From contig JBAQUT010000004.1 of the NCBI GenBank assembly GCA_049297695.1, positions 1,170-65,169 of the forward strand: DNA of 64,000 nucleotides, given 5' to 3'. Shown here one piece after another: positions 2,324-28,420 of this stretch (position 1 is the first letter of the stretch; each line of letters opens with the position of its first letter). The notes under the pieces were generated by a model. It saw only the letters and a program-made list of their open reading frames with translations, did not search any database and was not told the DNA's origin. The DNA is from Alphaproteobacteria bacterium (GTDB lineage: Bacteria; Pseudomonadota; Alphaproteobacteria; UBA2136; UBA6156). Made by a program: the position numbers and the translations under genes.

Positions 2324-2390
2324 ACACTCCCTGTCAGGCGTGTATTCGTAAGTTCGGGTATAAATGAGGGAATAAACAGAGGAGACCTCC

Positions 2391-3059: not shown

Positions 3060-3088
3060 CAAAAAATAATAAAAACAATGGAGATCAC

Positions 3089-5143: not shown

Positions 5144-5186
5144 TGAACGCCTGCATAAAAACAAACATAAAAACAGGTAGGCATTC

Positions 5187-6269
5187 ATGGGCCTCCAGAT
5201 AGGTAAATCAGGTCTTTCCAACAGCGATAGGATTGATTTTTTCAAAACCTTGGCAGGCTGGTTGAACGCAGGGGAGGGGCGTACCTCGGTATCGGAAGCC
5301 GTTGCCAACACCTGCGATGCCTTTGCCCACGACGAATACATAACCCTCCGCCCCAAAATGGAGATGATCAAACGCGAAGTTCAAGGGGCCCAAACCCAGT
5401 TTTATGAAGCCTTGAACATGGCGGGTTTGGGTTTTAAAAGCCAAGAAATATCCATCATTGAAGCCGCCGAAAAAAGCAACCAGCTCCGCTATGCCGTCCC
5501 CTCGTTGGTGAAAGCTATGGAGATTCAATACAACGGCCAAAGTGAAATGCGGATGAAACTGATGGGCCCTCTCATCATTGGCGTCATGCTTATCATTATG
5601 TCGATGGGCGTACTCTATTTTATGCTCCCATTGGTGGTTCAACCGGTGGTCGACCGTAACCCGGGTGCGATTGATAAATTTCCTTTCATTCTCCGTTATT
5701 ACTGGTACGCATCCGTGTGGATGCGGGCCAACCCGTGGATGCCCGTAATGGTAATTCTCATCCCACTTACCATTTACTTTGCTCGGAACTCTGCATTTCT
5801 TAAGCCCATCATGCAACGAATCATCATGGGGTGGAGCGTAAGCCGTAAATTAGTATTGGGGTTTAACAGCGTGATTGTAGTGTATTTTATGCCAGCCCTT
5901 GTCCGTTCGGGGCTCCCCACGTACCGGGTTCTCCAATATCTGGCAGATTGTATCAACAATCCCACACTGTCCAACATGTTTCGCATTGCTGCCCAAGAGC
6001 ATGAAGAAGGTATCCGCATGAGCCAAGCGTTGGAAAATATCCCCTTCCGCGCCTCGTTTGTAAATGCCATTTCGGCAGGCGAATCCACGGGCGCCATTGC
6101 CGACAGGGTAGAAGATTTACAAGCCCCCTACGGAGTGGAGTTGGAGCGGAACATCAAAAGTGTGGTGGGCACACTTAAGTTTATCGTGATGGGCATCCTG
6201 TTGCCCTTCTTCATCGTTTCAACTTACACTGCGCTGGTAGGGCCCATATTTGCCCTTATGGAGTACTAA
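5187..6269 (+). CDS. GspF/PilC-family inner-membrane platform protein (R64 PilR-sized, 360 aa)
   Basis: Polytopic with hydrophobic helices. Size and position directly after the ATPase are typical of T4P platform proteins. Confidence 0.7.
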   Translation: MGLQIGKSGLSNSDRIDFFKTLAGWLNAGEGRTSVSEAVANTCDAFAHDEYITLRPKMEMIKREVQGAQTQFYEALNMAGLGFKSQEISIIEAAEKSNQLRYAVPSLVKAMEIQYNGQSEMRMKLMGPLIIGVMLIIMSMGVLYFMLPLVVQPVVDRNPGAIDKFPFILRYYWYASVWMRANPWMPVMVILIPLTIYFARNSAFLKPIMQRIIMGWSVSRKLVLGFNSVIVVYFMPALVRSGLPTYRVLQYLADCINNPTLSNMFRIAAQEHEEGIRMSQALENIPFRASFVNAISAGESTGAIADRVEDLQAPYGVELERNIKSVVGTLKFIVMGILLPFFIVSTYTALVGPIFALMEY

Positions 6270-6271
6270 AT

Positions 6272-7405
6272 ATGGATATGGTTCTGCTCACCAAACGCGG
6301 CATCTCCTTCCAAAGGCTCAAACGGGGTGAGCAAACGGTTATATTGATACCCGCTCCCGAGCAAATTAAAATTTACAAAGATGTATCAGATACCTCGACC
6401 ATTGCCGAGCGTTATGGGTCATCCAGCCAAATACCCTTGTGGCGCCAGCAAGAAGGCCAAACGGTGGTGTACGGTATTTTACCCGAATCCCTCTCTCAGC
6501 GCCGTCAAGCCATGAAGGTGTATTTGGCCCATGATTTTGCCCCTTCAAATACCACGGCTTTTTATTATGTGATGGACCCCCGCTGGGTGGTACACGGCCA
6601 GCGGGAGGTAGACGACGAAGGCCGTGAAGGCTGGCAGGTTATTCTTATGAAAGCGCCGGATGGTGAAGGCCCTGCTGAAATGATCCAAGAATCAGCCTCC
6701 GAACTGATGATGGAAAACGCCGAAAGCCGTTTGGTTGTTGCTGTATATGAAAATATGGGGTTGCTGGAAGAACTGAAAGACAAATTAAAGCCTCTTTCTG
6801 TTCAACCCGTACCGTTTTCATCCCTCAAACCAGGCCCGCGGGCGCGCCCGTTGTATCTGCAACGGGATTTTACGCCGCTGATGCTGCTGGGTTCGCTCCT
6901 CGCGGCCTTGTGCTTGGTATCGGCTATATTTTATTGGATGATGTACTGGAAAGAAACAGCGCGTTTAGAAGACGAGATGGAGTTGGTTCGCAACCAGATT
7001 ATGAACATCCAAATCAACCAAAGCATCGGTAATTTAAGAGAGCCCGATGCCATGCTCTCCAGCATGCAAAAAGCCTTCAACCAAAAGCCATCAGCCATTA
7101 TGTCGGCCGCCTCTACCTTTGGTAAAGAATTTGGTGAGCTTGAACAGTTGGTGTTTGATACGGCTTCTAATAACAAAGCTGGCAACGAGGCTACGGCAGT
7201 ACGCCCCATTTTACCAGGCCAACACGTGGTGCAGGTTATGGTGAGTAAAATCACGAACAAGCTTTTGGTAGACCAAGAACGCCTGGCCCAGATTTTGGTA
7301 AACAAAACCCCGTGGATACGCCGAGTTGAAAACTTACCCCAAGGCCAAGCCGAATTGGTGATGGATGTGGTGCTGCAAACCGAGCAACCCGGAGAAACCC
7401 CATGA
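6272..7405 (+). CDS. Bitopic inner-membrane pilus assembly protein (cytoplasmic N-domain, one TM, periplasmic C-domain; BfpC/PilO-like architecture)
   Basis: Single TM LMLLGSLLAALCLVSAIFYWMMYW at mid-protein. ATG lies 2 nt after the previous stop. Confidence 0.5.
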   Translation: MDMVLLTKRGISFQRLKRGEQTVILIPAPEQIKIYKDVSDTSTIAERYGSSSQIPLWRQQEGQTVVYGILPESLSQRRQAMKVYLAHDFAPSNTTAFYYVMDPRWVVHGQREVDDEGREGWQVILMKAPDGEGPAEMIQESASELMMENAESRLVVAVYENMGLLEELKDKLKPLSVQPVPFSSLKPGPRARPLYLQRDFTPLMLLGSLLAALCLVSAIFYWMMYWKETARLEDEMELVRNQIMNIQINQSIGNLREPDAMLSSMQKAFNQKPSAIMSAASTFGKEFGELEQLVFDTASNNKAGNEATAVRPILPGQHVVQVMVSKITNKLLVDQERLAQILVNKTPWIRRVENLPQGQAELVMDVVLQTEQPGETP

Positions 7406-7923
7406 AGACAGGGATGACACGCGCCAGTTTTCGTAACACATGGGTTTTATCCACGCTGCTTATTTTGGGGCTGGCGTTCATGGCTTTTCAAAACGGCCAA
7501 TCGGAACAAGAAACCATTGCCAACAACACGTTCCAGCTGAATGCGTTAAGGTCGGAGCTCGACAACGCTGCCCGCCGCTCGATAGCCTTGGAAGAACTAG
7601 ATAAACTCACCATTAATGAAAAAACGGCAACACGGTTGGATATTTTGCGCCACTTGGGGTTAGAGCAAAGCGGGTATGATTTTCAGGTAAACGCCCGCCA
7701 AATGAAAACCGTAGGCGATGGCAACCTGTACCTGCGGGTTGTGAAATTGCAAATGGATTTACCTTACGGTGAAGCTATGGCGCTGGTAGACCGCCTTCAT
7801 GAAACCCGTAAAATCGTTATCAGTAAGATTGAAATGAAACGTTCCGGAAAACCCGGTGACAACGTTTATATGATTCTAGAAGGCACCATTTATGGGTTGG
7901 AGAAAAACGATGTTCAAGCATAG
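7402..7923 (+). CDS. Small N-terminally anchored periplasmic pilus assembly protein (PilP/GspM-like)
   Basis: ATGA overlap with upstream gene. N-terminal TM WVLSTLLILGLAFMAF followed by a coiled-coil. Confidence 0.45.
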   Translation: MKTGMTRASFRNTWVLSTLLILGLAFMAFQNGQSEQETIANNTFQLNALRSELDNAARRSIALEELDKLTINEKTATRLDILRHLGLEQSGYDFQVNARQMKTVGDGNLYLRVVKLQMDLPYGEAMALVDRLHETRKIVISKIEMKRSGKPGDNVYMILEGTIYGLEKNDVQA

Positions 7924-8503
7924 TTCTCTCATTCTTTTATCCCTTATGCCATGGGTTTATGCCAATGCCCAAAGTGTCGAGGCCGAATGGCGGGTTACCA
8001 ACACAGAAAGCCCGACAGTTGTACCAGCTTACGCGGGGCAAGCTAACCCGTTTCCCACCATTACCGAGCAGGTGGTTGTTGTAGCCCCAACCCCCGAGGT
8101 AAGTGAAGCCGACCTTAAAAACCGCGAGAAAGCCGATATTCTCCAGCAAGCCCGTAATATCATTAACGGGAACCAAGCGTTTGTAGCGAATTTGGATAAC
8201 ATTCAATTTGATGGCTACATGGAGGGTTTGCGAGGTAAAAAAGTGTTGATGAAAGGGTCTTGGATCGGTATCGGGCAAACAATCAATGTTCCCGTCAAAG
8301 GGGCTAAAAATGCCTATGCCATGCTGGAAAAACTCCAAGCGTTGGATGTTTCCTTGGCCAACCAAGTGAAAGCCGAGTTGGACGCCAAACTGATTAAAAA
8401 AGCCGTAACAGACATAAAAGTTGTTGATATTACAAAAGAGAAGGTAACCTTGGTAGAAGGTTCTCAGCGTTACGAGGTAAGAATAAAACCTTCTACCTTG
8501 TGA
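7910..8503 (+). CDS. Secreted periplasmic protein of pilus operon
   Basis: Signal peptide MFKHSSLILLSLMPWVYANA. GGAG RBS 8 nt upstream of the 7910 ATG. The listed ORF starts at 7892. Confidence 0.45.
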   Translation: MFKHSSLILLSLMPWVYANAQSVEAEWRVTNTESPTVVPAYAGQANPFPTITEQVVVVAPTPEVSEADLKNREKADILQQARNIINGNQAFVANLDNIQFDGYMEGLRGKKVLMKGSWIGIGQTINVPVKGAKNAYAMLEKLQALDVSLANQVKAELDAKLIKKAVTDIKVVDITKEKVTLVEGSQRYEVRIKPSTL

Positions 8504-8539
8504 GGCTACCTATAAGAAGAATGAAGGAGAGCCCGTACC

Positions 8540-9598
8540 GTGCAAGCCATGTTGATTTTCGCCCTGTTTGGAGCGTTCATGGCAGCCATTGCAGGTATTA
8601 TTTCATCGGCAACCGATAGTACTTTGCAAATGATGAAAAACCAAGTTGCCCAAGCACGGAGCTACTTTGACAGTGCGGAAAAAGTATGGCTGTACAACAC
8701 CGTACCCGCACACTTGCAAATTCCGTTCAATTCATGCCCCGATGGTACCAACTACGGGGTCCACGATGTCAAATCGTACCTGTGCCAAAACCAGATTGCC
8801 AAACTTGCCCAATGGTTGGGGTCTCAACAGGGCACCAAAGACCCTTGGAAAAACGATATTACAGGCTATGTCCTCCGCAAAGAAGTTCCTATTTACGCAT
8901 CCGCCCCCGATTACGTGGTGTCGGTACCCGTAACGGCCATGGTGTTGGTATCCCCAGGGCCCGACCACCGTTTGGCACCAGCGTTGCAAGCCGATATCAA
9001 CGCGTTGTCGGGCAGTTCTCAAATTAGGGATGTTTTGCGTATTGCGGCGCCCAACCCAACGACATGCTCTGTGGCAACCGACGGTAGTTGTGATGATATT
9101 GTCCATACCTTCAGCGATATGAGCGCCCAGCAAAACCGTTGGCGTGGTGTTCAAGCGGCGGTAGACCGTATTGGTTCGGCCGCTGGCCGAGATTACGGCA
9201 TGCAGTTTCGCAGTTTCCAATCCCAGCTTCCGGGTATTTATGCGGCCAACATTGCAAGCTTGTTCGATGCCAGCGGTAACTTGTCGGTAACCGCAAGCAA
9301 CATCAACTTGTGGAAAAGCCAAGGCGTATCTCCCCCCACGTTTAACGATATCGACTTGAACGACCCCGAAGAGCGTGTACGTATCGGTGTGGATGCCGAG
9401 TTTGAGTATATTACCAACTCCGTCAGCGACGGCGGGAGCAGCTTGGCGTTGGCGTTTGCCGTATCAGATAGCCCAGGCGGTTACCAGGATGTTCTCACCA
9501 TTTCCCTTTCCAACAGCGCAAGCCCTTGGGGACTGTGGGATACACAGGGTGGTGTTCTTAAGTACCAAAACATTGTCAGTTTCACCCTCGTCAACTAA
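8540..9598 (+). CDS. Membrane-anchored periplasmic protein, possible pilin-like or minor pilus component
   Basis: GTG start 9 nt after an AAGGAGAG RBS. N-terminal hydrophobic helix MLIFALFGAFMAAIAGIIS. No canonical Glu5. Confidence 0.4.
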   Translation: MQAMLIFALFGAFMAAIAGIISSATDSTLQMMKNQVAQARSYFDSAEKVWLYNTVPAHLQIPFNSCPDGTNYGVHDVKSYLCQNQIAKLAQWLGSQQGTKDPWKNDITGYVLRKEVPIYASAPDYVVSVPVTAMVLVSPGPDHRLAPALQADINALSGSSQIRDVLRIAAPNPTTCSVATDGSCDDIVHTFSDMSAQQNRWRGVQAAVDRIGSAAGRDYGMQFRSFQSQLPGIYAANIASLFDASGNLSVTASNINLWKSQGVSPPTFNDIDLNDPEERVRIGVDAEFEYITNSVSDGGSSLALAFAVSDSPGGYQDVLTISLSNSASPWGLWDTQGGVLKYQNIVSFTLVN

Positions 9599-9608
9599 GG
9601 AGATACGT

Positions 9609-10703
9609 ATGAGCCACAAACCGTTCTTGTCCAAAGCGGGTTTTTCACTCCCCGAGATTATCCTTGTGGTGTCGGTCATGGCCATCATCGCCAGTTTGTC
9701 GGCCCCTCCCTTGATTGAGTTTATGAAACGTCGGGATATCCAGGTGGAAGAAAACACCCAAAACGAAATCGTGAAAGCGATGAAACTGTACTTGGCGGAT
9801 AGAAATACATTGCCTGCCGATACCAGCCTCACATGGGCCGACGAAGTTGCCCGTTACACCAATCTTTCGGCCCAGCAGATTGCGAACGATAAATGGGGCA
9901 AACCCCGTGTGTATGTGCGGTTGGTGGTTACCGAAACGTTTTTGGGTACGCCGGTGGATATTTTTTACGTAACTCTTCACTCATCAGGCCCCAATCGTAA
10001 GGCCGAAGGCGGGGCCGCCACCGCAGGGGGCGAAACCATTGCAAACAGCGGTATTTCAACCAGCAGCAACAATTTTGATGCCCTGACCTCGACAGGGTGG
10101 TGGAAAAACAAGGCAACCGATACCGTCCGGATTGATAGTTTTGTGGCGGCACAACCCGCTGTCGACGACATGATGATTCGCTTCACCGATTACGCCGATA
10201 AAATCGCAAAATACAACACGTCGCTTGAACGCTTGCAACGGATCTCCGAAGCTTTGGAGGTGTACTCCACAACCAAATATAACGAGGCAGCCATTGCTTG
10301 CATGACCGTGCCTTGCACGCCATCGGCCGAGAAATATATTTACTATCCCCGCTCGAACGACGGGGCCACAAACCCAGCCAGTTACTACGGAAGCAACACC
10401 GCAACCGACTTAACCACCTACAACAGCGGCAACGCTATTTATAACAGCGATACCGACGATACCAACCGACGCACCCACATGATTAACTTGATGCGGATTT
10501 TGGGGCTGCCCGATGAATACTGCTGCAATGCCATGGAAAACATTACGGGCACAAAAAACGAAGTTCCTTTCTTCTACTTCAGCAACCCTCGCCCACGTAC
10601 GGCCGCGGGCTGCGGTACCCGGCCCGACCCTGCTGTGGGCCGTACCTTGCCCGCCCGTATGACTGTGAAAGGCATTAACGAGGACACCAACGTGTGCGGC
10701 TAA
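9609..10703 (+). CDS. Minor pilin / PilV-like protein with class III (prepilin) signal
   Basis: RBS AAGGAG. N-terminus MSHKPFLSKAG-FSLPEIILVVSVMAIIASL has the G/F cleavage motif with Glu5. The upstream extension to 9375 is rejected because it overlaps the previous gene. Confidence 0.7.
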   Translation: MSHKPFLSKAGFSLPEIILVVSVMAIIASLSAPPLIEFMKRRDIQVEENTQNEIVKAMKLYLADRNTLPADTSLTWADEVARYTNLSAQQIANDKWGKPRVYVRLVVTETFLGTPVDIFYVTLHSSGPNRKAEGGAATAGGETIANSGISTSSNNFDALTSTGWWKNKATDTVRIDSFVAAQPAVDDMMIRFTDYADKIAKYNTSLERLQRISEALEVYSTTKYNEAAIACMTVPCTPSAEKYIYYPRSNDGATNPASYYGSNTATDLTTYNSGNAIYNSDTDDTNRRTHMINLMRILGLPDEYCCNAMENITGTKNEVPFFYFSNPRPRTAAGCGTRPDPAVGRTLPARMTVKGINEDTNVCG

Positions 10704-11110
10704 CCGAGCTGGCAGACGTGTGGGTTTACGTAGGTCAGGCCTACCCTTGGGTAGCTCCAATGCTTGGAGCATTGTTAGGGGCTGTCGCGGGTTCGTTTCT
10801 CACCTGCGCATTAGCCCGTATTCCCCGTGGAATCTCGTTGTGGCACCCGCCAAGCCAATGCGATACCTGCCAGCGCACGTTGGGTGTGGTAGATTTGATT
10901 CCGATTGTATCGTGGGTGGTGTTTCAAGGGAAATGCCGTAAGTGCAACGCATCTATTGGTAGCAGCGTCGTGTTGTGGGAGATTGTTTCCACAGCGGTGG
11001 GTGCTGGGTTGGGGTGGTGGTGGGGTCTGGCATGGAGTACGTTTCCAGCTCTTCTGATAGGCCTTTCCCTCTATGCAACAGTGGTACTGCTTATAAAAAA
11101 GGCATCTTGA
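10694..11110 (+). CDS. Prepilin peptidase-like protein, N-terminal TM plus zinc-ribbon region only (truncated; no aspartyl-protease domain)
   Basis: Contains GSFL..CxxC...DLIPIVSW..GKCRKC, the PilD/TadV N-terminal domain. The ORF ends after two further TM helices, before the catalytic Asp motifs. No peptidase-like sequence is seen in any downstream frame. Confidence 0.6.
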   Translation: MRLTELADVWVYVGQAYPWVAPMLGALLGAVAGSFLTCALARIPRGISLWHPPSQCDTCQRTLGVVDLIPIVSWVVFQGKCRKCNASIGSSVVLWEIVSTAVGAGLGWWWGLAWSTFPALLIGLSLYATVVLLIKKAS

Positions 11111-17024: not shown

Positions 17025-17699
17025 ATGGATTTTGTCGCCCGCGCCGGTTCGTTTATCGATCGTGCCCACCGTATGGCAGGCGTGCTGCTGCTGATTGTCA
17101 TTTTACAAAGCCTGATTATCATCAACCAATGGAACAACAACAACGACATGGCCGAGCAATTGCGCTACGTGGCCGTGCGCATGCCTGTATATGTGGTACC
17201 CGGCGCCACCCGCGGGATTTACAGCCCCACGGAAGACGATTTGCTGATTAAAGCCTTTGTGGATCAAGTCACCCAAAGCTTTAAAACTTTCACGTACGAA
17301 ACATTGCCCAACCAGTACCAAGAAATGAAACAGTTCTTCACCCCCCAAATGCTGGTGAGTGCGGAAGGGTATTTCAGCAAGGCCTTGCGGGATAGCCAAG
17401 CCGACCGCCGCAGCAGCCTGTTCATCCCCGACCATCAAAGCATGAAGGTGGAGAAGGGGACTGAAAATGGATTGGAGGTGCGGGGCGTCACCATCCGCGG
17501 CAGCCTGCAAACCGTGATTGCCGGCAGTGTGGTAGAGAGTTTGCCCATTGAAATTGTTTTGAAAATCCAAAAATCCATGATTTCCAAAGCCAATCCGTTC
17601 GGGTTCCAGCTGGCCGAATACCGCGAACGCGCGGTTTCCCAGCAATCGGCCCAGCCGTTTATCCCCCAGCCCAGCCTTGAAGGAGGTACGCCCCAATGA
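17025..17699 (+). CDS. Bitopic T4SS protein (VirB8/TraE-like)
   Basis: N-terminal TM MAGVLLLIVILQSLIIINQW with a periplasmic domain. Gene order is pilin, B3-like, then this gene. Confidence 0.5.
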   Translation: MDFVARAGSFIDRAHRMAGVLLLIVILQSLIIINQWNNNNDMAEQLRYVAVRMPVYVVPGATRGIYSPTEDDLLIKAFVDQVTQSFKTFTYETLPNQYQEMKQFFTPQMLVSAEGYFSKALRDSQADRRSSLFIPDHQSMKVEKGTENGLEVRGVTIRGSLQTVIAGSVVESLPIEIVLKIQKSMISKANPFGFQLAEYRERAVSQQSAQPFIPQPSLEGGTPQ

Positions 17700-18412
17700 T
17701 GATGTTTGTACGTATGATGGTGGTGGCCTTGCTGCTGCCGTTGGCGGGGTTTGCCGATACCATGGTGTGGCGCGGCCCTACCCAAAGCCTCACCATCGGC
17801 CTCTCGCAAGATGACATTGCCCACATTGAAATGCCCGAAGCCATCACCAATGTAACTTTGGAAAACCAAGATTACGTGGATGTGCTGGTGGTAGAAGGCT
17901 ACAACAACCGTGCGTTCCGCATGCGCAGCCTGCTCCCTAAAATGGCCACACGGATGTTTTTAACCGGCGCCAGCGGCAACACGTACATTGCGGTGCTGAC
18001 CACCGATGTCCCTTACCGTGCTTTCGTGCAGGTAGTGAATGGACTGGAAGTTGACAACGTGGCCCGCAAAGTGAGTAAAAAATTTGGCCCGACCGATATG
18101 GTGCGCGGCATGGCCACCAACACGGATATGCCTGGCGTGCAGCGCGAAACCTACGTCATCCCCAACTGGTTCAAAGGTGGTGGATTGACGTTTGACCTCT
18201 CGGAAGTGTGGCAATCTCCCAAGCTCACAGGTATTGTGGTGAACGTGCGGAACGATACCCCTGCCGCCAACGAGGTGAACCTTCCCGCCATCACGCTCCC
18301 CCGTACCGACGAGTGGGGAACCCTGCGCTACGCCAGCATGGAAAACCTTCGCCTCGCCCCCAGCGGCCGCGCCAATGACCGTGGCGTGATGTTTCTTATA
18401 TTCGTGCGTTAA
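17696..18412 (+). CDS. Secreted T4SS core protein (VirB9/TraK-like)
   Basis: ATGA overlap with the upstream gene. Signal peptide MVVALLLPLAGFA. 238 aa. Confidence 0.5.
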   Translation: MMMFVRMMVVALLLPLAGFADTMVWRGPTQSLTIGLSQDDIAHIEMPEAITNVTLENQDYVDVLVVEGYNNRAFRMRSLLPKMATRMFLTGASGNTYIAVLTTDVPYRAFVQVVNGLEVDNVARKVSKKFGPTDMVRGMATNTDMPGVQRETYVIPNWFKGGGLTFDLSEVWQSPKLTGIVVNVRNDTPAANEVNLPAITLPRTDEWGTLRYASMENLRLAPSGRANDRGVMFLIFVR

Positions 18413-18467
18413 CCCTTGACAACCGCATCCAACCAAACTAGATTGTCTGCACGGTTAGTTGGGTAAC

Positions 18468-18505
18468 TAAAAAAAGGGCGGCTGCGTTAACAGTCCGCCC
18501 TTTTT
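18468..18505. terminator. Bidirectional rho-independent terminator
   Basis: A-run, then a 9-bp GC stem (gggcggctg/cagtccgccc, one bulge), then TTTTT. Confidence 0.6.
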
Positions 18506-18507
18506 GC

Positions 18508-18582
18508 TTATCTGCGGATGATAAGGACGATGGTGAATCGTACCTTGCTCAACCACAGAAGCAAGGCACCATAGAGGTCCAT
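18508..18582 (-). CDS. Candidate 24-aa hydrophobic small protein (MDLYGALLLWLSKVRFTIVLIIRR)
   Basis: AAGGAG Shine-Dalgarno lies 7 nt upstream of the ATG. The stop codon abuts the intrinsic terminator. Too short for the ORF track. Confidence 0.35.
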   Translation of the reverse strand: MDLYGALLLWLSKVRFTIVLIIRR

Positions 18583-18751
18583 GGTTATGCTCCTTTCGGT
18601 TAGGTTGGGTACGGAGCACCACGCCACTACGGCCATTATTTTGTATCATAAATCAAATATCCCTGCAACAGCCGGATGCTTAATTTCAATGCATGTGACG
18701 GTAAGTTTATATCTCCCACTCGCCAAACCTATCGTGGTGCCCTATAAGTAG

Positions 18752-19519
18752 ATGATGCTGCTGCGCGCCGCCCTGATGTTACTCTGCCTGCTGGCCCCTG
18801 TGGCCCATGCCGACTATGAGCGTGACCCCTACAGCGCCACCATTGCCCGCGAAAGCTGGAACCTGATTGGCCGCACCGAACAAACCAACAATATCCCCGC
18901 AGGCTTACTGCACGCCATGAGCCTCACCGAAACGGGCCAAGGCATGAGCGGCTGGATGATGCCCTGGCCCTACACCGTGGGCGTTAACAGCCCTGGTAAA
19001 AAAGATTACCTCAAACTCCAGCATGCCCTGAACGACCTTGCATGGTTCCGCAAAATGGGGTTCGCCCGGTTTGATGTCAGCGCCGGTGGTAAATCCGTGA
19101 ACGGCCTCAAGGTGGATGCCGCCGCCGTGCTGTTCAACCTGTACCCTACGGCCACCAGCTACACCATCAAGCCCCAGCCCTACGGCCGCCGGTTTGCCAA
19201 CGCGGTGGAAGCCCGCGCCTTTGTGGATAAAATGTTCAGTTTTGGCCATAAAAATTTGGATTTGGGCCTCATGCAAATCAATTACAAAGTGCACGGTTCC
19301 AAATTCCGCAGCGTGAACGACCTGTTCAACCCCGTGGTGAACGTGAATTACGCCGCCAGCTACCTGCTGGAACACAAACAAACCCGCGATTGGTGGGGCA
19401 GCGTGGGCCGCTACCACAGCGCCACTCCCACCTACGCCCGCAAATACATTACCAGCGTGTACAAGTGGTACAAACGGGTTCATGACTTCAACAATGGTCG
19501 CCAGATTGCGGCGCGGTAG
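18752..19519 (+). CDS. Specialised lytic transglycosylase (SLT domain; VirB1/PilT(R64)-like)
   Basis: Signal peptide. GLMQI motif plus the conserved E..S..GA..LMQ pattern. Confidence 0.85.
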   Translation: MMLLRAALMLLCLLAPVAHADYERDPYSATIARESWNLIGRTEQTNNIPAGLLHAMSLTETGQGMSGWMMPWPYTVGVNSPGKKDYLKLQHALNDLAWFRKMGFARFDVSAGGKSVNGLKVDAAAVLFNLYPTATSYTIKPQPYGRRFANAVEARAFVDKMFSFGHKNLDLGLMQINYKVHGSKFRSVNDLFNPVVNVNYAASYLLEHKQTRDWWGSVGRYHSATPTYARKYITSVYKWYKRVHDFNNGRQIAAR

Positions 19520-19583: not shown

Positions 19584-19943
19584 ATGATTAAGCTTGGAAA
19601 TGTGACTATGGATGCCGAACGTTTAAAGTCGGTTATTCAAACCTTTCATGATGATCAAATTGAAGAAATGGCCTATTGGTTTTCATCGACCCTTGGATTT
19701 GGGTTACCCGAAGGTCATTCAAATGTAAAAGAAGCTCTTCTTTCTATTATTGATGAGAAAAGGATTCATCCAGAACTTGCAACAGCTCTTTACGCTGCGT
19801 TTATTGGTATGCGCATAGAAGAACAACGTGAAAAAGCACCAGAGAAGAAGCATTTTCGGATAACACGATTTGGTATTGTTGAAAAAGAAACGTCAAAAAC
19901 TTTCCGTATTGTTGATGATGGCCGAGATAATGAGCGCAGTTAA
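19584..19943 (+). CDS. Hypothetical protein, AT-rich islet gene
   Basis: Strong RBS AAGGAG. Clearly lower GC than flanking genes. Confidence 0.55.
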   Translation: MIKLGNVTMDAERLKSVIQTFHDDQIEEMAYWFSSTLGFGLPEGHSNVKEALLSIIDEKRIHPELATALYAAFIGMRIEEQREKAPEKKHFRITRFGIVEKETSKTFRIVDDGRDNERS

Positions 19944-20077
19944 TATCTTGTCTATGATCTTTGATCTCATACCTCTGACCATCTTCCCACACCCCCGTCA
20001 GTTTTCGAACCCTCAATCCTGACATCCCTCCCACACCTCTGCTAAGGTGCCCATAACAACAAAAAGGGTACTTTCGT

Positions 20078-22246
20078 ATGGCCAAAGCCAAACCTACCAA
20101 GGCCGCCAAGCATGTTGCCAAGGCTGCGCCTAGTGAGGTGGTTAAGGCGAAGGCCAAACCTGTCGCCATGCCTGCCGAGGACGACCTGAAAGCCGCCGAC
20201 GAAGGCTACCAACTGGCCCGCAAAGATGCCGCCAAATACCTTCACAGCCGCCGCCAAGCCATGTTTGCCCTCTCCCGCCGTTACCATTTGGAACCCGAGG
20301 ATGTGGAGCAAGAAGGTTTTGAAGTGCTGCTCACCTGTTTGCGGGATTTCAAACCCCAGTACACCAAAGCCAACGGCGAAACCATTCACGTACTGTTCAA
20401 CACGTTTTTTGGCAGCCGGTTGGATGGCAAGGCGCTGGAACTCCGTAACCGCGACCCCGAATACCAAGCCCGCCAAGCGCATTTGGAAGATATGTCGGAG
20501 GCCGATAAAACAGCTTTCCGCCAAGCCCCGCCGTTGTTAGTGCAACATCTCGACCAACAAACCTCCATGCAAGAACACCTTACCAGCGAGGCCTCCAACG
20601 CCCGCCGCAGCAATCAGGTGAGCACGGCCATGAAGATTGCCCACGACAGCTTCATTGATAAAAAACTCAACCAGCTGATAGCCCAAGAGCGCGATGACAA
20701 ACGCCGCGCTGCCCTGATGCATGTGAAGGTGGGCGGGGTGAGCAGCTTTGACGACATCGCCTACCACTTTGGGGTGACGGACAGCCGCGCCAGCCAGATT
20801 TTGAACGACCTGATGGACGCCTTTTACGTGCAACGCCTGCTGGATGGCGACCTGAAAAGCGTGGCGTACGATTGGAAAAAACTGAAAATGCAGCCCAAAC
20901 GCGCCGCCCGCCTTCTGGAAGACGCCGTGGCCAACAGCACGCGGGAACGCGCCAGCGAAATTGTGGCCGCCTTTGTGGCCGATTACCCCGAGGCGAAAAG
21001 CCTGCCGTTACCGGAACTCACGTCGGAGGCATCTGCCTCCGCCCCCGCCAAACTCACCACCGCAGGCACGGGCCGCACCTTTGCCGACCCCTTCACGGTG
21101 GACGACGATGCCCGCTACCCTTTGCTGGGTCTGGAATGGCGCAGCGTAGCCAGCCTGAACCCCCTGCACGTGCCCTTCCGCAACGGAGCAGATGACGCCC
21201 ACGAGCAACCCCACATCACCACCATCATGGCCACCGAGGCCGACCAATGGCCGCTCATCATCACCCACGAAGGCGGCGTGGTGGATGGCCAGCGCCGCTG
21301 GCATGCTGCCCAGCAGCGCGGCAAAGATAAAGTGCTATGCTTGGTGCGCCAAGTGCCCGAGCACGATGCTAAAATCATGCGTGTAGTAGCCAACTTGCGG
21401 CAAATCAAAGCCGACAAAATGGACGTGTACTTTGCCATCAGCGCCCTCAGCGATTTAGGGCTCTCCCAACAACGCATCGCTGCCGCCCTTGGTATTTCGC
21501 GCCCCAACGTGATTGTTTACGCCAAGGTGAAAGACAAAGCCACGCCCAAACTCCGTGCGTTGTTTGAGGATGGCTTCATCCAAATTACCAACGCCAGCGC
21601 CAGTGTGGATTTACCCGCCACCGCCCAAGACGGCATGGCGGAGTTCATCCGCAAACACGGTGCCACATGGGGCAAAGGCCCCCAGTTTAACGAGGTTTAC
21701 GAGGCCGCCGCCTCGGGCAAACTCTCCAAACTGGCCGCCATGCAACCGGAGCCTCAAGCCCCCAACACGACCGCAGCACCAACTCCCGCATGGGCGCCCG
21801 TTCCAGTATCCACCGCCATGGCCGTGGCCCCGGCCGACCAAAACGTGGTGCAAGCCCTGCGCAACCGTCAAACCGCCATGGAAACTGCCCTGCGCGACGC
21901 CGAAACCTGGGGCCAACAGCGGGAAGGGGTAGTAGCCCGCCAAACGTCAGAAATCACGGATTTAAAACAACAACTCGATGCCCTCAAGCGCGAACTTCAA
22001 GCCCACGACTTGCTGAAATACGGCGACGAAGCCACGGTGGCGGGTTTGATGAAAGAAATCAAAGGTTTTTACGCGGTGGTGGAACGCTTGGCTGGCGCCA
22101 GCTACCAACTGGATAAAGCCCATAAATCCCTGCGCGGCCAACCGTTAAGCTACAAACAAATCCAAGAGGTTCAAACGCTGACCGACACCATGGAAGCCAG
22201 CCTGTCCGCCCTGCGGGTGGAGCTTTCCAGCAAAAACCGTCGTTAA
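20078..22246 (+). CDS. Fusion protein: Lys/Ala-rich tail plus sigma-70 region2/region4-like plus ParB/Srx-like nuclease domain plus coiled-coil
   Basis: N-terminal AKAKPTKAAKHVAKA repeats. EDVEQEGFEVLLTCLRDFKP is region-2-like. VSSFDDIAYHFGVTDSRASQIL is a region-4 HTH. DGQRRWHAAQQ is a ParB GxxR motif. Confidence 0.6.
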   Translation: MAKAKPTKAAKHVAKAAPSEVVKAKAKPVAMPAEDDLKAADEGYQLARKDAAKYLHSRRQAMFALSRRYHLEPEDVEQEGFEVLLTCLRDFKPQYTKANGETIHVLFNTFFGSRLDGKALELRNRDPEYQARQAHLEDMSEADKTAFRQAPPLLVQHLDQQTSMQEHLTSEASNARRSNQVSTAMKIAHDSFIDKKLNQLIAQERDDKRRAALMHVKVGGVSSFDDIAYHFGVTDSRASQILNDLMDAFYVQRLLDGDLKSVAYDWKKLKMQPKRAARLLEDAVANSTRERASEIVAAFVADYPEAKSLPLPELTSEASASAPAKLTTAGTGRTFADPFTVDDDARYPLLGLEWRSVASLNPLHVPFRNGADDAHEQPHITTIMATEADQWPLIITHEGGVVDGQRRWHAAQQRGKDKVLCLVRQVPEHDAKIMRVVANLRQIKADKMDVYFAISALSDLGLSQQRIAAALGISRPNVIVYAKVKDKATPKLRALFEDGFIQITNASASVDLPATAQDGMAEFIRKHGATWGKGPQFNEVYEAAASGKLSKLAAMQPEPQAPNTTAAPTPAWAPVPVSTAMAVAPADQNVVQALRNRQTAMETALRDAETWGQQREGVVARQTSEITDLKQQLDALKRELQAHDLLKYGDEATVAGLMKEIKGFYAVVERLAGASYQLDKAHKSLRGQPLSYKQIQEVQTLTDTMEASLSALRVELSSKNRR

Positions 22247-26493: not shown

Positions 26494-27933
26494 ATGGCCG
26501 ACCCTTTACTTCCCCAACAGCCCAAAACCCCGTCTGAGGGCGGGATGAACATTGTGGAGCGTCTTCGGGAACTTCCAACTCCTGCCAAAGCCGCGTTGGG
26601 CGTGGTGGGTATGGGCGTGTTGTACTTGCTGGTGGGCGGCGGCGGTGATAATGCCGTGCAACAAGGCGCTGCCGTGAACACCACCAGCCAAGCCGCGTTG
26701 CAGCAAGATGGCCAGCCTCAAGGCGATGGCGTGTTCAGCGGAATCGAATCCGACAGGCCCGTGCTAATGCAAGGTTGGTTGGAACAAAACCGCCGTGAAA
26801 TGAGCGAGCTGAAAGAAACGATTCAAACCAAGTTTGACGAAAAAGACAAAGCCTTGGCCGATGCCTTGCAAAACAACGCCGACCTGCAAGCCCAAATGCG
26901 CCAAATGATGGCCGATTTTACCGCCGAAGTACGCAACATTCAAACCAGCAACCAGCGGGACAAGGAAATGCTGGACCAGCTGGCGGAAGAGCAACGTAAA
27001 CTTCAGTTGGACGCCCCTGTGGATGGCGTAACAGGCGTAGGCCCCGTGATGCGCACCCAAAAACGGATTGAACAAACCCCCTTGGGCGGCGGTGGAGGAG
27101 GGCAAGTGCAGGGGCAGCCCCTGTTAGCCCCTTTAGGGGCGGTGGCCGGTAGGGCCACGCAAAGCAACGGGGCTGCCATGGCCACGGTGTCGGGGGATGG
27201 TGATGGGGTAGAGCCTGTTCAAAACCTGCCCTTCGTGCCCCCTTTGGGCTTCATTAAAGGCACGCTGTTGAACGGGGTGGATGCTTTGGTGGGAGGGCAA
27301 CCCACGCCGTCGTTGGTCCGTCTTTCGGGCAACTACAAAACCGCCATGGGCACCACCGTGCAGTTGGATGGTTGCTATGCTCTGGTTGAATTTCAAGGCG
27401 AAATCTCCACCGAGCGGGCCGTGGGTAAACCCGCTCGCATGACGTGCGTGTACCCCGACCAAGGGGCGGTTACTTACAGTTTGTCGGGGTATGTGGTGGA
27501 TAGCGAAGATGGCATTATCGGCATCCCCGGTATCTTTTACGAAGGCGATGCCAGCCGCATAGCCGCCGCCATGATGGCCGACTTTGCCGCAGGCGTAAGC
27601 GCCGTGGTAAAAGACAGTCAAACCACCACCAGCGTGGATAGCGCCGGTAACGCCACCCAAAGTATTACGGGCAGCGAACTGAAGGGCGAGATTGCCGGTG
27701 GCGTGGAAAAAGCCGTGGGAAGTTTGCGTGATTACCTGCTGCAACGCGTAACCCGCGTGTTGCCGTTTGTGCGGCTGGATGCTACCCGCCAAGTGCACCT
27801 TGTGTTCCTTTCAGGCACCGAATTGCGGGCCGAAGGTTCCCCTTGGACCTTGCTGTTTGATGCCGAAGCGGCTGACCAAGCCCGTGCTGGCGCTGCGGCC
27901 CAAACACCATCTAACGAGAACAACGGAGGCTAA
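26494..27933 (+). CDS. VirB10/TraB-like bitopic T4SS protein
   Basis: Short cytoplasmic N-terminus, one TM, low-complexity linker, coiled-coil, then a C-terminal beta-rich domain. An alternative start at 26545 has a better RBS. Confidence 0.5.
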   Translation: MADPLLPQQPKTPSEGGMNIVERLRELPTPAKAALGVVGMGVLYLLVGGGGDNAVQQGAAVNTTSQAALQQDGQPQGDGVFSGIESDRPVLMQGWLEQNRREMSELKETIQTKFDEKDKALADALQNNADLQAQMRQMMADFTAEVRNIQTSNQRDKEMLDQLAEEQRKLQLDAPVDGVTGVGPVMRTQKRIEQTPLGGGGGGQVQGQPLLAPLGAVAGRATQSNGAAMATVSGDGDGVEPVQNLPFVPPLGFIKGTLLNGVDALVGGQPTPSLVRLSGNYKTAMGTTVQLDGCYALVEFQGEISTERAVGKPARMTCVYPDQGAVTYSLSGYVVDSEDGIIGIPGIFYEGDASRIAAAMMADFAAGVSAVVKDSQTTTSVDSAGNATQSITGSELKGEIAGGVEKAVGSLRDYLLQRVTRVLPFVRLDATRQVHLVFLSGTELRAEGSPWTLLFDAEAADQARAGAAAQTPSNENNGG

Positions 27934-27936
27934 CCC

Positions 27937-28383
27937 ATGAAACGTACCCTGATGCTCGGCACCTTGGTAGCCTTGGCTGGCTGCAAATACTATGGCAGCG
28001 CCCTACCGCCCGAATACCCCATGAGCATGGACGATGCCGCCAGCGTGGCCAGCGACATGGGCGCTGGTAGTGGTGGTGTGCAACGCTCGGTTATCAAACA
28101 AGGCGTGCGCCCCCGCATGGAGCGCCCCAGCTATTTGCCGGAAAAAGAACTGGCCATCGTAGCCCCGCCCAAAACCTTGCTGGTATGGACCTACCCCCAC
28201 GTGACGGACGACAACACCCGCGTGTTTGGTAACTGGAGCACAATTTTCCTGACCGACCGTTACGAATGGGTACGCCCCGGCAACGAAGTTGGTATGGCCG
28301 AAGACGATGCCGGAACCGATGCTGGCCGCCCCAACCTTGGCTCCAGCAAAGAAGCTGAAAGGATTATGCCCGTTAAAAAGTAA
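27937..28383 (+). CDS. Small lipoprotein (VirB7/TraV-like)
   Basis: Lipobox LVALAGC. GGAGG RBS. Located immediately before the VirB4 ATPase. Confidence 0.55.
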   Translation: MKRTLMLGTLVALAGCKYYGSALPPEYPMSMDDAASVASDMGAGSGGVQRSVIKQGVRPRMERPSYLPEKELAIVAPPKTLLVWTYPHVTDDNTRVFGNWSTIFLTDRYEWVRPGNEVGMAEDDAGTDAGRPNLGSSKEAERIMPVKK

Positions 28384-28420
28384 ACATGCCCGTTTGGTTT
28401 GAACAAAAACAAAGAACATC

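What the first reader, a model, noticed from the sequence alone, without database searches (positions are those of the whole stretch)
18413..18751. Intergenic region with a strong bidirectional terminator and a candidate 24-aa hydrophobic peptide gene
Between the VirB9-like and lytic transglycosylase genes sits a near-consensus TTGACA-17-TAGATT element (18416..18444) followed by a 9-bp GC hairpin plus a T-run. On the opposite strand there is a perfectly spaced AAGGAG-7nt-ATG opening a 24-codon ORF (MDLYGALLLWLSKVRFTIVLIIRR) that stops exactly at the terminator. Size and hydrophobicity match type I toxin or small membrane regulator genes. Such a gene could stabilise the island or modulate the T4SS.
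Basis: seen in the sequence. Interest (0 to 1): 0.5.

Follow-up and report, generated by a model that had tools for sequence, protein, structure and literature searches.

The report
Candidate RNA-controlled small toxin gene
The spacer between two type IV secretion genes holds a compact 257-bp module, a 24-residue hydrophobic peptide gene facing a tiny antisense RNA gene across a shared terminator, and it looks like a previously undescribed type I toxin-antitoxin pair, though this rests on sequence comparison with a single other lineage and no experiment.

Summary
The peptide ORF is probably real. A second lineage (L040-L043, flanking genes about 80% nt identical) carries a homologous module, which matches window 18416-18672. 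In that lineage the TTGACA and TAGATT hexamers are invariant around a diverged 17-nt spacer. The terminator stem is kept while its loop differs. AAGGAG-7-ATG and the stop codon are kept. The peptide differs by L3Y plus four synonymous changes.

It should produce a ~55-nt RNA that ends at the shared terminator. The 5' tail of that RNA is complementary to the apical loop of a hairpin in the peptide mRNA that sequesters the SD and AUG. Both partners changed together between the lineages: cognate duplexes are -21 kcal/mol and swapped pairs are -12 to -15.

This is the layout of par (Fst/RNA II) type I toxin-antitoxin loci, but the peptide matches no known toxin family.

Weak points:
- Only two informative lineages exist.
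- No convincing promoter was found for the peptide mRNA.
- Toxicity is untested.
- Seven other close-relative lineages and 31 GTDB species lack the module.

I classify it as a new member of a known kind, of moderate interest.

The parts
18416..18444 (+). Promoter of the antisense sRNA: -35 TTGACA (18416-18421), 17-nt spacer, -10 TAGATT (18439-18444)
   Evidence: Scanner score 10/12. The motif class occurs 2 times in 64 kb against 0.15 expected. Both hexamers and their immediate flanks are identical in L040-L043, while the middle of the spacer is diverged at equal length.
18451..18505 (+). Predicted ~55-nt antisense RNA (candidate antitoxin): a single-stranded 5' tail plus the terminator hairpin. 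The transcription start is inferred as A18451, 7 nt after the -10
   Evidence: Inferred from the promoter and terminator positions. The fold gives a free 5' tail and the terminator hairpin. The same arrangement, 49 nt long, is present in L040. No transcript data.
18452..18465 (+). Direct-repeat copy A, the sRNA seed CGGTTAGTTGGGTA at the very 5' end of the sRNA
   Evidence: It is the top direct repeat in the spacer in both lineages, at homologous positions but with different sequence. Duplex with copy B on the mRNA is -21.0 kcal/mol, against a shuffled mean of -9.7, p about 0.0005.
18471..18505 (.). Shared bidirectional intrinsic terminator, flanked by A7 on the left and T5 on the right
   Evidence: Free energy -21.5 on plus and -22.3 on minus, z -4.5 and -4.9. 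The stem is conserved and the loop differs in L040 (CGTTAA against CTTCTA). The U-run is longer for the minus transcript in both lineages.
18508..18582 (-). 24-codon ORF MDLYGALLLWLSKVRFTIVLIIRR with stop TAA (candidate toxin)
   Evidence: L040 encodes MDYYGALLLWLSKVRFTIVLIIRR, which is 4 synonymous changes plus L3Y. In codons 1-9, pS is 0.62 and pN 0.10, like the flanking genes (pS 0.45-0.56). In codons 10-24, 0 of 10.7 synonymous sites changed. It meets the Fozo 2010 hydrophobicity criterion of 10 of 15 residues (PMC2887945; by inspection). Maximum 19-residue Kyte-Doolittle mean is 1.74 and net charge is +3.
18590..18595 (-). Shine-Dalgarno AAGGAG, 7 nt before the ATG
   Evidence: Identical in L040. 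All five other AAGGAG-N5-9-ATG sites in the window start ORFs of 98 aa or more.
18597..18612 (-). Direct-repeat copy B, the sRNA target GUACCCAACCUAACCG, lying in the 19-nt apical loop directly 5' of the SD
   Evidence: The target is unpaired with probability 0.97 (0.80 in L040). It co-varies with copy A: GG to TA in both copies, and an A present in both window copies is absent from both L040 copies.
18613..18617 (-). Anti-SD GCUCC, part of the 5' strand of a long stem (18633->18613) that pairs with the SD, the AUG and codons 3-5
   Evidence: The consensus fold of the window and L040 shows it. The three one-sided changes in stems all keep pairing. The AUG is unpaired with probability only 0.06 and 0.04.
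18467..18640 (-). Predicted peptide mRNA, about 170 nt, 5' end uncertain
   Evidence: MFE -74.0 kcal/mol with z -7.1 (L040: -71.3, z -5.8). The same DNA read on the plus strand folds 8-11 kcal/mol worse, with z -4.2 and -3.8.
18641..18672 (-). Conserved block upstream of the mRNA, presumed promoter region. The best -10 candidate is TATGAT (18651->18646), which is TATGTT in L040. There is no recognisable -35
   Evidence: Homology with L040 runs to about 18672 and then drops to 32-50% identity. The scanner finds no minus-strand promoter in either lineage, so this part is inferred and weak.

Best explanation
The spacer contains a self-contained, convergently transcribed two-gene module (18416-18672) that works like a par-type type I toxin-antitoxin system.

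The minus strand gives a highly folded mRNA of about 170 nt. It encodes a 24-residue hydrophobic, cationic peptide. Its Shine-Dalgarno sequence and AUG are locked in a long stem by an upstream anti-SD, so the full-length message is poorly translatable.

The plus strand carries a strong sigma-70-type promoter that gives a ~55-nt RNA. The two RNAs end at the same bidirectional terminator, so their 3' hairpins are fully complementary. In addition, the first 14-15 nt of the small RNA pair with the apical loop of the SD-sequestering hairpin, immediately 5' of the SD. Binding there should block 30S access and/or trigger duplex cleavage, keeping the peptide off. If the short RNA decays or is not replenished, the peptide is made and inserts in the inner membrane.

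What is shown: conservation and co-variation of all these sequence elements, and the folding energetics. What is inferred: both transcripts, translation, toxicity and the direction of regulation.
For: Selection on the module:
- A 257-bp block is about 82% identical between the window and L040-L043, with a 100% identical stretch. The rest of the same spacer is 32-50% identical and flanking genes are about 80-82% identical with pS 0.45-0.56.
- Promoter hexamers are invariant around a diverged spacer of equal length. The terminator stem is kept and its loop changed.

Coding evidence:
- SD, ATG and stop are conserved, while the upstream in-frame ATG is lost (ATT) and frameshifted in L040.
- Six nucleotide differences amount to 4 synonymous changes plus one L-to-Y codon.
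- The probability of at most 1 aa change is about 0.001 when 7 substitutions are placed at random. That simulation used 7 rather than the observed 6, so the true value is somewhat higher. It is 0.11 when positions are fixed at those observed and only the replacement bases are randomised.
- Codons 1-9 have pS 0.62 against pN 0.10.
- The other five reading frames take 2-5 aa changes or contain stops.
- AAGGAG-N5-9-ATG otherwise marks only real gene starts in the window.

Antisense pairing:
- The best direct repeat in the spacer falls at homologous sites in both lineages but has a different sequence.
- Cognate duplexes are -21.0 and -21.1 kcal/mol, swapped pairs are -14.9 and -12.4, and shuffled tails average -9.7 and -8.4.
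- The target loop is 0.97 and 0.80 unpaired, and the AUG is 0.06 and 0.04 unpaired.

Strand:
- The minus RNA folds with z -7.1 and -5.8, against -4.2 and -3.8 for the plus strand.
- The longer U-run is on the minus side.

Architecture: it matches par as described in the review PMC7472228, namely convergent promoters, a shared bidirectional terminator, direct repeats giving a second complementary region at the translation initiation site, and an intramolecular stem-loop hiding the SD.

Peptide: it meets the published screening criteria for short type I toxins, that is at least 10 of 15 hydrophobic residues and a charged C-terminus (PMC2887945).
Against: - Only two informative lineages exist. 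L033 is nearly identical to the window and lies in a recombination block, so the statistics rest on six ORF substitutions and two or three co-varying repeat positions.
- No consensus promoter is found for the peptide mRNA in either lineage.
- The peptide's hydrophobic stretch is interrupted by K13 and R15.
- It has no Pfam, NCBIfam or Rfam match.
- Codons 10-24 show no synonymous change at all, so much of the conservation is at RNA level. A non-coding role could therefore be argued.
- The module is absent from seven other close-relative lineages (L002, L034-L037, L038, L039, L044/L045, L046/L047, L048/L049) and from all 31 GTDB species loci. It was not found in JGI metagenomes, viral contigs, plasmids or phages.
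- There are no transcript, translation or toxicity data.
Confidence: 0.6

Rival explanations
1. The module is a real antisense-controlled small-protein gene, but the peptide is not a toxin. It would be a small inner-membrane regulator or accessory factor, for example one acting on the neighbouring T4SS or lytic transglycosylase, whose level is tuned by the sRNA.
For: All the gene-level evidence for the best explanation applies equally. The module sits inside a T4SS cluster. Hydrophobicity is modest, with central K and R residues.
Against: Double locking of translation, by SD/AUG sequestration plus an antisense RNA sharing a terminator, is the hallmark of toxic peptides (PMC7472228). The module is missing from most relatives that keep the same T4SS genes, so it is not a needed T4SS part. 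It is transcribed against the operon.
Confidence: 0.17
2. The module encodes two convergent non-coding RNAs, or one structured RNA plus its antisense regulator, and the 24-codon ORF is not translated.
For: Codons 10-24 have 0 of 10.7 synonymous sites changed, against about 55% in flanking genes. That points to nucleotide-level rather than protein-level constraint there. Very strong folding, z -7.1 and -5.8. Most ORF substitutions fall in predicted loops or linkers. The coding test conditional on the observed positions gives only p = 0.11.
Against: AAGGAG-7-ATG and the stop are conserved, and that motif otherwise marks only true starts in the window. Codons 1-9 show a neutral synonymous rate with a low non-synonymous rate. 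The in-frame upstream ATG is not conserved, so the ORF boundaries coincide with the SD-proximal ATG. An anti-SD/SD/AUG stem has a purpose only if translation is at stake.
Confidence: 0.1
3. The plus-strand promoter, short leader and terminator form a transcription-attenuation or long-leader control element for the downstream SLT gene. The minus-strand ORF would be incidental.
For: The order on the plus strand is promoter, hairpin with T-run, 245 nt, then the SLT gene. The plus-strand T-run is short (5 T, and 4 T in L040), so read-through is likely.
Against: The leader before the terminator is only about 20 nt, variable, and offers no alternative antiterminator fold. SLT has its own conserved T.GCCA-17-TATAAG element 5-6 nt before its ATG, including in relatives that lack the module. 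The sequence between 18673 and 18719 is not conserved. The structure is better on the minus strand. Co-variation of two direct repeats has no role in a single plus-strand RNA. No Rfam cis-regulatory family matches.
Confidence: 0.05
4. Nothing is here beyond an operon-end terminator. The promoter match and the short ORF would be chance features of a fast-evolving spacer, or the remnant of a mobile insert whose direct repeats are a target-site duplication.
For: Several relatives have a plain hairpin right after the VirB9-like gene. Spacer length varies from about 5 to about 770 bp, and other inserts occur at this site, such as a GIY-YIG ORF in L006. The module is patchy.
Against: The 257-bp block is conserved at the level of the coding flanks, or above it, between genomes whose neutral sites are about 50% changed, and it has sharp borders. 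The promoter motif is a 0.15-per-window event. A target-site duplication would not change in concert in both copies after the lineages split. There is no second copy in the window or in 50 loci, so it is not a repeat family.
Confidence: 0.04

Closest known systems
par locus of Enterococcus faecalis plasmid pAD1 and its chromosomal homologues (Fst toxin mRNA RNA I with antitoxin RNA II; type I TA)
   Same: The toxin mRNA and a very short antitoxin RNA are transcribed convergently. They share a bidirectional intrinsic terminator, which gives complementary 3' hairpins. DNA direct repeats on either side of the terminator give a second complementary region next to the toxin's ribosome-binding site. 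An intramolecular stem-loop hides the SD. RNA sizes are similar: about 40 nt (RNA II) and about 230 nt (RNA I) in par, as described in PMC7472228, against about 55 and about 170 nt predicted here.
   Different: The peptide is shorter (24 aa against 33 aa). It has no Fst/Ldr signature and no Pfam or NCBIfam hit. There is one repeat pair rather than DRa plus DRb. The target lies in the hairpin loop just 5' of the SD rather than over the initiation site. The host is a Gram-negative uncultured alphaproteobacterium, whereas the par organisation is described for Gram-positives. The toxin promoter was not identified.
Other 3'-overlapping or convergently transcribed type I TA systems (Bacillus subtilis txpA/RatA and bsrG/SR4; Streptococcus mutans Fst-Sm/srSm)
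   Same: A small hydrophobic peptide gene lies in an intergenic region with a convergently transcribed antisense RNA overlapping the 3' end or terminator. The S. mutans case (PMC3543317) appeared in the literature search. The rest is from my own knowledge.
   Different: In those systems the long 3' overlap drives RNase III-dependent decay. Here the 3' overlap is only the terminator hairpin (about 39 nt), and a separate 5' seed is present. There is no sequence similarity.
SD-sequestering type I toxin mRNAs of Gram-negatives (hok/sok, tisB/istR-1, aapA1/isoA1)
   Same: The full-length mRNA is folded so that the SD and start are inaccessible, and a short antisense RNA acts near the translation initiation or standby region. 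The peptide is short, cationic and hydrophobic with a basic C-terminus. (Own knowledge.)
   Different: Those antitoxins are encoded divergently or overlap the 5' region, and do not share a terminator with the toxin gene. There is no homology. No evidence here for 3' or 5' processing-dependent activation.

Membership tests
Type I toxin-antitoxin systems (generic) | Short ORF (under about 60 aa) encoding a hydrophobic, putatively membrane-inserting peptide with a polar or charged C-terminus | tested here: met
   24 aa. Residues 6-20 (ALLLWLSKVRFTIVL) contain 10 of 15 residues from I, V, L, F, C, M, A, which is the Fozo 2010 rule (PMC2887945), and the C-terminus is RR. Maximum 19-residue Kyte-Doolittle mean is 1.74. 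K13 and R15 interrupt the stretch.
Type I toxin-antitoxin systems (generic) | A cis- or nearby-encoded small RNA with extended complementarity to the toxin mRNA | tested here: met
   In silico only. There is a conserved promoter and terminator for a ~55-nt RNA. It has 39 nt of terminator overlap plus a 14-15-nt seed duplex of -21 kcal/mol that co-varies between lineages. No expression data.
Type I toxin-antitoxin systems (generic) | The peptide is toxic when over-expressed, and the RNA neutralises it by blocking translation and/or destabilising the mRNA | not testable with these tools
   Needs inducible expression, co-expression of the sRNA, and reporter or toeprint assays.
par-type organisation (Fst/RNA II-like loci) | Convergent promoters at the two ends of the locus | tested here: inconclusive
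   The sRNA promoter is strong and conserved. For the peptide mRNA there is only a conserved upstream block with a weak -10 candidate (TATGAT/TATGTT) and no -35. The scanner finds nothing.
par-type organisation (Fst/RNA II-like loci) | A shared bidirectional intrinsic terminator between the two genes | tested here: met
   Hairpin at 18471-18505 with A7 and T5 flanks, about -22 kcal/mol on both strands. The stem is conserved and the loop varies. The ORF stop is 2 nt from it.
par-type organisation (Fst/RNA II-like loci) | DNA direct repeats transcribed in opposite directions, giving complementarity at the toxin's translation initiation region | tested here: met
   There is one repeat pair (18452-18465 and 18597-18612), not two. 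The target ends 1 nt before the SD. It co-varies in L040.
par-type organisation (Fst/RNA II-like loci) | An intramolecular stem-loop in the toxin mRNA that sequesters the SD | tested here: met
   In the predicted consensus fold, GCUCC pairs with GGAGC and the AUG is also paired. All three one-sided substitutions preserve pairs. The AUG is unpaired with probability at most 0.06. This is prediction only.
Fst/Ldr toxin superfamily (Pfam Fst_toxin, Ldr_toxin) | Sequence signature: a TM helix of about 20 residues with a P/D/S/T-XXX-G motif, then a conserved Trp, then a highly charged C-terminal tail. Detectable homology | tested here: not met
   No Pfam or NCBIfam hit at E up to 10. W10 is preceded by only 8 hydrophobic residues and followed by another hydrophobic stretch. 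D2-X-X-G5 is not DXXXG. The signature is as given in PMC7472228. It is not filed as an Fst/Ldr member.
Known RNA families (Rfam antitoxin or toxin-mRNA models, cis-regulatory leaders) | A covariance-model match at or near the gathering score | tested here: not met
   Only tRNA passes in the window. In 18300-18900 the best hits are 8-16 bits against thresholds of 38-80.

The most novel reading that the evidence does not exclude
The module may be wired into the T4SS operon rather than merely parked in it. The sRNA promoter and seed lie between the VirB9-like stop codon and the only terminator. Every transcript of the upstream T4SS operon therefore ends with the antitoxin sequence as its 3' UTR. 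Toxin translation would be held off as long as the T4SS operon is transcribed or present, and released when that operon is silenced or deleted. This would be an addiction device that enforces retention or expression of a secretion or conjugation apparatus, in a bacterial class where no type I TA has been characterised to my knowledge. That gap reflects my own knowledge plus an unproductive literature search, not a proof of absence.
Probability: 0.1. Interest if true: 0.65.

Novelty: new member of a known kind. Interest (0 to 1): 0.42.

Why it matters
[quoted passage not shown] The peptide is too short for gene callers: none of the small ORFs here is on record among about 15 billion proteins. 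The families are also narrow. [quoted passage not shown]

A par-like module in an uncultured alphaproteobacterium would extend that regulatory design to a new bacterial class and add a new toxin family. It would also give a compact, testable example of intermolecular co-variation between an sRNA seed and its loop target.

Its position inside a lineage-wide T4SS plus type IV pilus cluster gives a concrete hypothesis about the maintenance of that cluster. If the peptide turns out not to be toxic, it is still an unannotated, sRNA-controlled small-protein gene.

Tried and rejected
Searches for more homologues:
- Near-identical DNA in E. coli genomes and plasmids: none.
- Distant blastn of the module against plasmids and phages: none.
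- Exact look-up of the 24-, 42-, 60- and 56-aa spacer ORFs among 15 billion proteins: none on record.
- Back-translated peptide patterns, strict and hydrophobic-relaxed, in JGI metagenomes: 0 hits.
- The relaxed peptide pattern and a gapped anti-SD...SD pattern in viral contigs: 0 hits.
- GTDB species scan with the VirB9-like profile: 31 loci, none with the module.
- Contigs of the closest protein relatives: the module is present only in L033 and L040-L043. It is absent in L034-L039, L044-L049 and L002. L050 is cut 97 bp after the VirB9-like gene and no module DNA is visible. The 90%-identity cluster of the VirB9-like protein has no further members.

Comparisons that gave no usable signal:
- L033 turned out to be uninformative for selection because it sits in a near-identical recombination block.
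- Looked for analogous but non-homologous peptide-plus-terminator modules in the longer spacers of other relatives: none.
- L046's spacer may hold a deletion remnant (CTATCTGC..ATGA, GCAACAGCC), but the match is too short to trust.

Readings considered and rejected:
- MITE or REP element: no second copy.
- oriT: no adjacent relaxase, and the conserved features are translational signals.
- Riboswitch or attenuator: no Rfam hit, and the leader is too short.
- Longer ORFs across the spacer (the 42-aa extension, 60 aa on minus, 56 aa on plus): broken by indels or a start-codon loss in L040, or they run through the terminator.
- The 13-codon plus-strand ORF antisense to the peptide gene: both of its changes are non-synonymous.

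Not resolved: I tried to find a sigma-70 promoter for the peptide mRNA by eye and by scanner, and none was convincing.
Full report
**1. What is in the sequence**

The 339-bp spacer 18413-18751 lies between two plus-strand genes.

- The downstream gene (18752-19519) has an SLT lytic transglycosylase domain.
- The upstream 238-aa gene (17696-18412) has no Pfam or PDB sequence match.
- An AlphaFold model of that protein, built on 34 homologues (pLDDT 84), matches the F-plasmid and pED208 outer-membrane core complexes, Xanthomonas VirB9, DotH, TrwF/VirB9 and CagX (Foldseek E 1e-12 to 3e-4). The 'VirB9-like' label is therefore right at fold level.
- The wider window carries a type IV pilus-like gene set (secretin, T2SSE ATPase, T2SSF, prepilin peptidase).
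- It also carries further T4SS parts: weak matches to VirB2-type pilin and TraE, and matches to TrbI/VirB10 and a VirB4/TraC-like ATPase.

- TTGACA-17-TAGATT lies at 18416-18444.
- A hairpin lies at 18471-18505. It folds at -21.5 kcal/mol on the plus strand and -22.3 on the minus strand, with no shuffle folding as well. It is flanked by A7 and T5.
- On the minus strand, AAGGAG is followed by 7 nt, then ATG, then 24 codons (MDLYGALLLWLSKVRFTIVLIIRR) and TAA. The stop lies 2 nt before the terminator.

These features are not trivial by chance.

- TTGACA-N16-18-TANANT occurs twice in the window, against 0.15 expected.
- The five other AAGGAG-N5-9-ATG sites in the window all open ORFs of 98 aa or more.

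**2. Who else has it**

The VirB9-like/SLT gene pair is syntenic in about 30 species-level MAGs of an uncultured alphaproteobacterial lineage, on contigs up to about 1 Mb. It is a lineage-wide cluster rather than an obvious recent island.

The spacer between the two genes varies from about 5 to about 770 bp. Most relatives have only 60-160 bp and no trace of the module. This includes relatives whose VirB9-like protein is about 82-91% identical to the window's (L002, L034, L038, L039, L044, L046, L048).

Two sets of contigs do carry the module.

- L033 differs by one base in the spacer. However, it sits in a block (from about 18296 to the contig end) that is 99.3% identical, while the 5' part of the same gene is 10% diverged. 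That is a recombination mosaic, so L033 says nothing about selection.
- L040-L043 are four contigs from four different samples and are informative. Their flanking genes are 80-82% identical at nucleotide level, with 45-56% of synonymous sites changed. Their spacer is 335 bp and aligns with window 18416-18672.

No other homologue was found in JGI metagenomes, viral contigs, plasmids, phages or the protein collection.

**3. Pattern of conservation**

Homology has sharp borders. It starts at the -35 hexamer, 3 nt after the VirB9-like stop codon. It ends near 18672, after which identity falls to 32-50%.

Inside the block:

- (a) TTGACA and TAGATT and their immediate flanks are invariant. The middle of the 17-nt spacer is almost completely different, but the same length.
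- (b) The terminator stem is identical, while the loop differs (CGTTAA against CTTCTA).
- (c) The 56 nt after the terminator are 100% identical.
- (d) AAGGAG-7-ATG and the stop are kept.
- (e) The in-frame upstream ATG that would give a 42-aa ORF is ATT in L040 and is followed by a frameshift. The conserved unit is therefore exactly the 24-codon ORF.

**4. Is the ORF coding?**

L040 encodes MDYYGALLLWLSKVRFTIVLIIRR. The six nucleotide differences are GCC to GCA, TTG to CTG, CTT to CTG and CTG to TTG, all synonymous, plus CTC to TAC (L3Y).

- In codons 1-9, synonymous sites have changed at the neutral rate (pS 0.62, against 0.45-0.56 in the flanking genes). Non-synonymous sites have not (pN 0.10).
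- I estimated the probability of at most one amino-acid change with no stop. It is about 0.001 when 7 substitutions are placed at random. That simulation used one more substitution than the six observed, so the true figure is somewhat higher. It is 0.11 when positions are fixed at those observed and only the replacement bases are randomised.
- A simple binomial calculation on codons 1-9, which I did by hand, gives about 0.01-0.03.
- The other five frames take 2-5 changes or contain stops.
- Codons 10-24 show no change at all in 10.7 synonymous sites. That means an additional nucleotide-level constraint. This segment forms a long, perfectly conserved hairpin in the predicted mRNA.

The coding evidence is consistent and moderately significant, but not conclusive.

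**5. The mRNA**

- The minus-strand RNA 18636->18467 folds at -74.0 kcal/mol (z -7.1). The L040 counterpart folds at -71.3 (z -5.8).
- The same DNA read as plus-strand RNA is 8-11 kcal/mol weaker (z -4.2 and -3.8). The structure, which contains several G-U pairs, therefore belongs to the minus transcript.
- In the consensus fold, the 5' segment GCCGUAG.UGGCGUGGUGCUCC pairs with GGAGC (the SD), ACCAUG (the start codon) and codons 3-5.
- The three substitutions that fall in stems all preserve pairing: G-C to G-U, G-U to A-U, and C-G to U-G.
- The AUG is unpaired with probability 0.06 and 0.04.
- The stem is capped by a 19-nt loop.

**6. The antisense RNA**

Transcription from the plus-strand promoter should start at A18451 and stop at the hairpin's T-run. 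That gives a 55-nt RNA (49 nt in L040) with a free 5' tail.

- The repeat finder reports the best direct repeat in the spacer at 18452-18463 and 18597-18608 in the window. In L040 the best repeat lies at the homologous positions but has a different sequence: CGGTTAGTTGGG / CGGTTAGGTTGG against CGGTTGGTTTAG / CGGTCGGTTTAG.
- The two copies lie on opposite sides of a terminator toward which both genes are transcribed. The sRNA tail is therefore complementary to the mRNA at copy B. Copy B is the apical loop described above, and the pairing ends 1 nt before the SD.
- Cognate duplexes are -21.0 and -21.1 kcal/mol. Swapped partners give -14.9 and -12.4. Shuffled tails give -9.7 ± 2.6 and -8.4 ± 2.1, with p at most 0.0005.
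- The target is unpaired with probability 0.97 and 0.80.
- GG to TA occurred in both copies, and a further position changed in both. These are compensatory changes in an intermolecular helix.
- A target-site duplication left by an insertion would not evolve in concert in this way.

**7. Interpretation**

The elements are convergent genes, a shared bidirectional terminator, a direct repeat giving a second pairing site at the ribosome-binding region, and an intramolecular stem hiding the SD. This is the organisation described for par of pAD1 and its homologues (review PMC7472228).

The peptide meets the screening rule used for short type I toxins (PMC2887945). That rule asks for at least 10 of 15 hydrophobic residues and a charged C-terminus, and I checked it by inspection.

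K13 and R15 interrupt the hydrophobic stretch.

[quoted passage not shown] There is no Pfam or NCBIfam hit and the published signature is not met. No Rfam family matches.

I therefore read it as a new type I toxin-antitoxin candidate with par-like regulation, at confidence about 0.6. I put about 0.8 on the weaker claim that it is a functional sRNA plus small-ORF module of some kind.

**8. Weak points and rivals**

- There are only two informative lineages.
- No convincing promoter for the peptide mRNA was found. The best candidate -10 is TATGAT at 18651->18646, which is TATGTT in L040. There is no -35, and the scanner is negative in both lineages.
- Toxicity and both transcripts are inferred.

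Rivals:

- A non-toxic, sRNA-tuned small membrane protein (0.17).
- A purely non-coding RNA pair (0.10). The frozen synonymous sites of codons 10-24 argue for it; the SD, ATG and stop conservation and codons 1-9 argue against.
- An attenuator or leader for SLT (0.05). This is contradicted by the short variable leader and by SLT's own conserved promoter-like element in relatives that lack the module. It is also contradicted by the strand asymmetry of folding and by the repeat co-variation.
- Chance features or an insertion remnant (0.04). This is contradicted by the conservation profile.

**9. Distribution and role**

The module is present in two lineages of the clade closest to the window and absent from the next-closest ones (L044, L046). 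That fits a single gain or repeated loss. L046 may hold a deletion remnant, but the match is too short to rely on.

The same spacer carries a GIY-YIG ORF in L006. L040 has two 23S_rRNA_IVP genes elsewhere in the cluster. The spacers of this cluster therefore collect small accessory elements.

Whether the module stabilises anything is untested. One structural point is worth noting. The sRNA seed lies between the VirB9-like stop codon and the only terminator, so operon read-through transcripts would also carry the antitoxin sequence in their 3' UTR. This is inference only.

**10. Verdict**

This is a new member of a known kind, of moderate interest.

Noticed in passing
window 17758-18977 compared with L033 1-1316: The comparison is a mosaic: 54 substitutions (about 10%) in 17758-18295 but only 5 (0.7%) from 18296 to the contig end. 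This implies a recent recombination breakpoint inside the VirB9-like gene, with the TA-like module in the near-identical block (coordinates printed there are 1 too low).
   Followed up: partly
window 18720-18757; also L040 about 3968-4003, and directly upstream of the SLT start in L034, L038, L002, L044 and L046: TCGCCA-17-TATAAG ends 3 nt before ATG 18752 and 6 nt before ATG 18755. A TATAAG/TATAAA hexamer 5-6 nt before the SLT start codon recurs in relatives with otherwise unalignable spacers. SLT probably has its own promoter and a leaderless mRNA. The true start in the window may be 18755.
   Followed up: partly
L006 6826-7149 (spacer between the VirB9-like and SLT genes): In this relative the same spacer is 766 bp and carries a 107-aa GIY-YIG domain ORF (Pfam E 1.5e-5) flanked by GC-rich hairpins. 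The spacer is a recurrent landing site for small inserts.
   Followed up: partly
L040 364-729 and 1822-2187: Two 121-aa genes with the 23S_rRNA_IVP (PF05635) domain are inserted between T4SS genes in the L040 lineage. They have no counterpart in the window.
   Followed up: no
window 398-11110 and 26494-31015: A type IV pilus-like set (secretin, T2SSE ATPase, T2SSF platform protein, prepilin-peptidase N-domain) lies directly upstream of very divergent T4SS genes. Those genes include TrbI/VirB10 and a VirB4/TraC-like ATPase. Several large neighbours (914, 484, 633, 664 and 693 aa) have no Pfam match at all. The cluster is conserved across an uncultured alphaproteobacterial lineage.
   Followed up: partly
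window 19584-22246 compared with L034 4607-6349 and L038 3494-5224: Gene content downstream of SLT differs between lineages. The window has a 119-aa ORF and a 722-aa protein with weak ParB_N/HTH matches. L034 and L038 have a UvrD-like helicase at that position.
   Followed up: no
window 45953-45924 (minus strand): This is the only other exact TTGACA-N16-18-TANANT site in the window. I did not examine it further.
   Followed up: no
window 18508-18552 (codons 10-24 of the small ORF): There are no substitutions at any of about 10.7 synonymous sites between lineages whose flanking genes have about 50% of synonymous sites changed. The segment forms a long conserved hairpin that includes the stop codon. 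Its role is unexplained; possibilities include mRNA stability, a processing site or a translation brake.
   Followed up: partly
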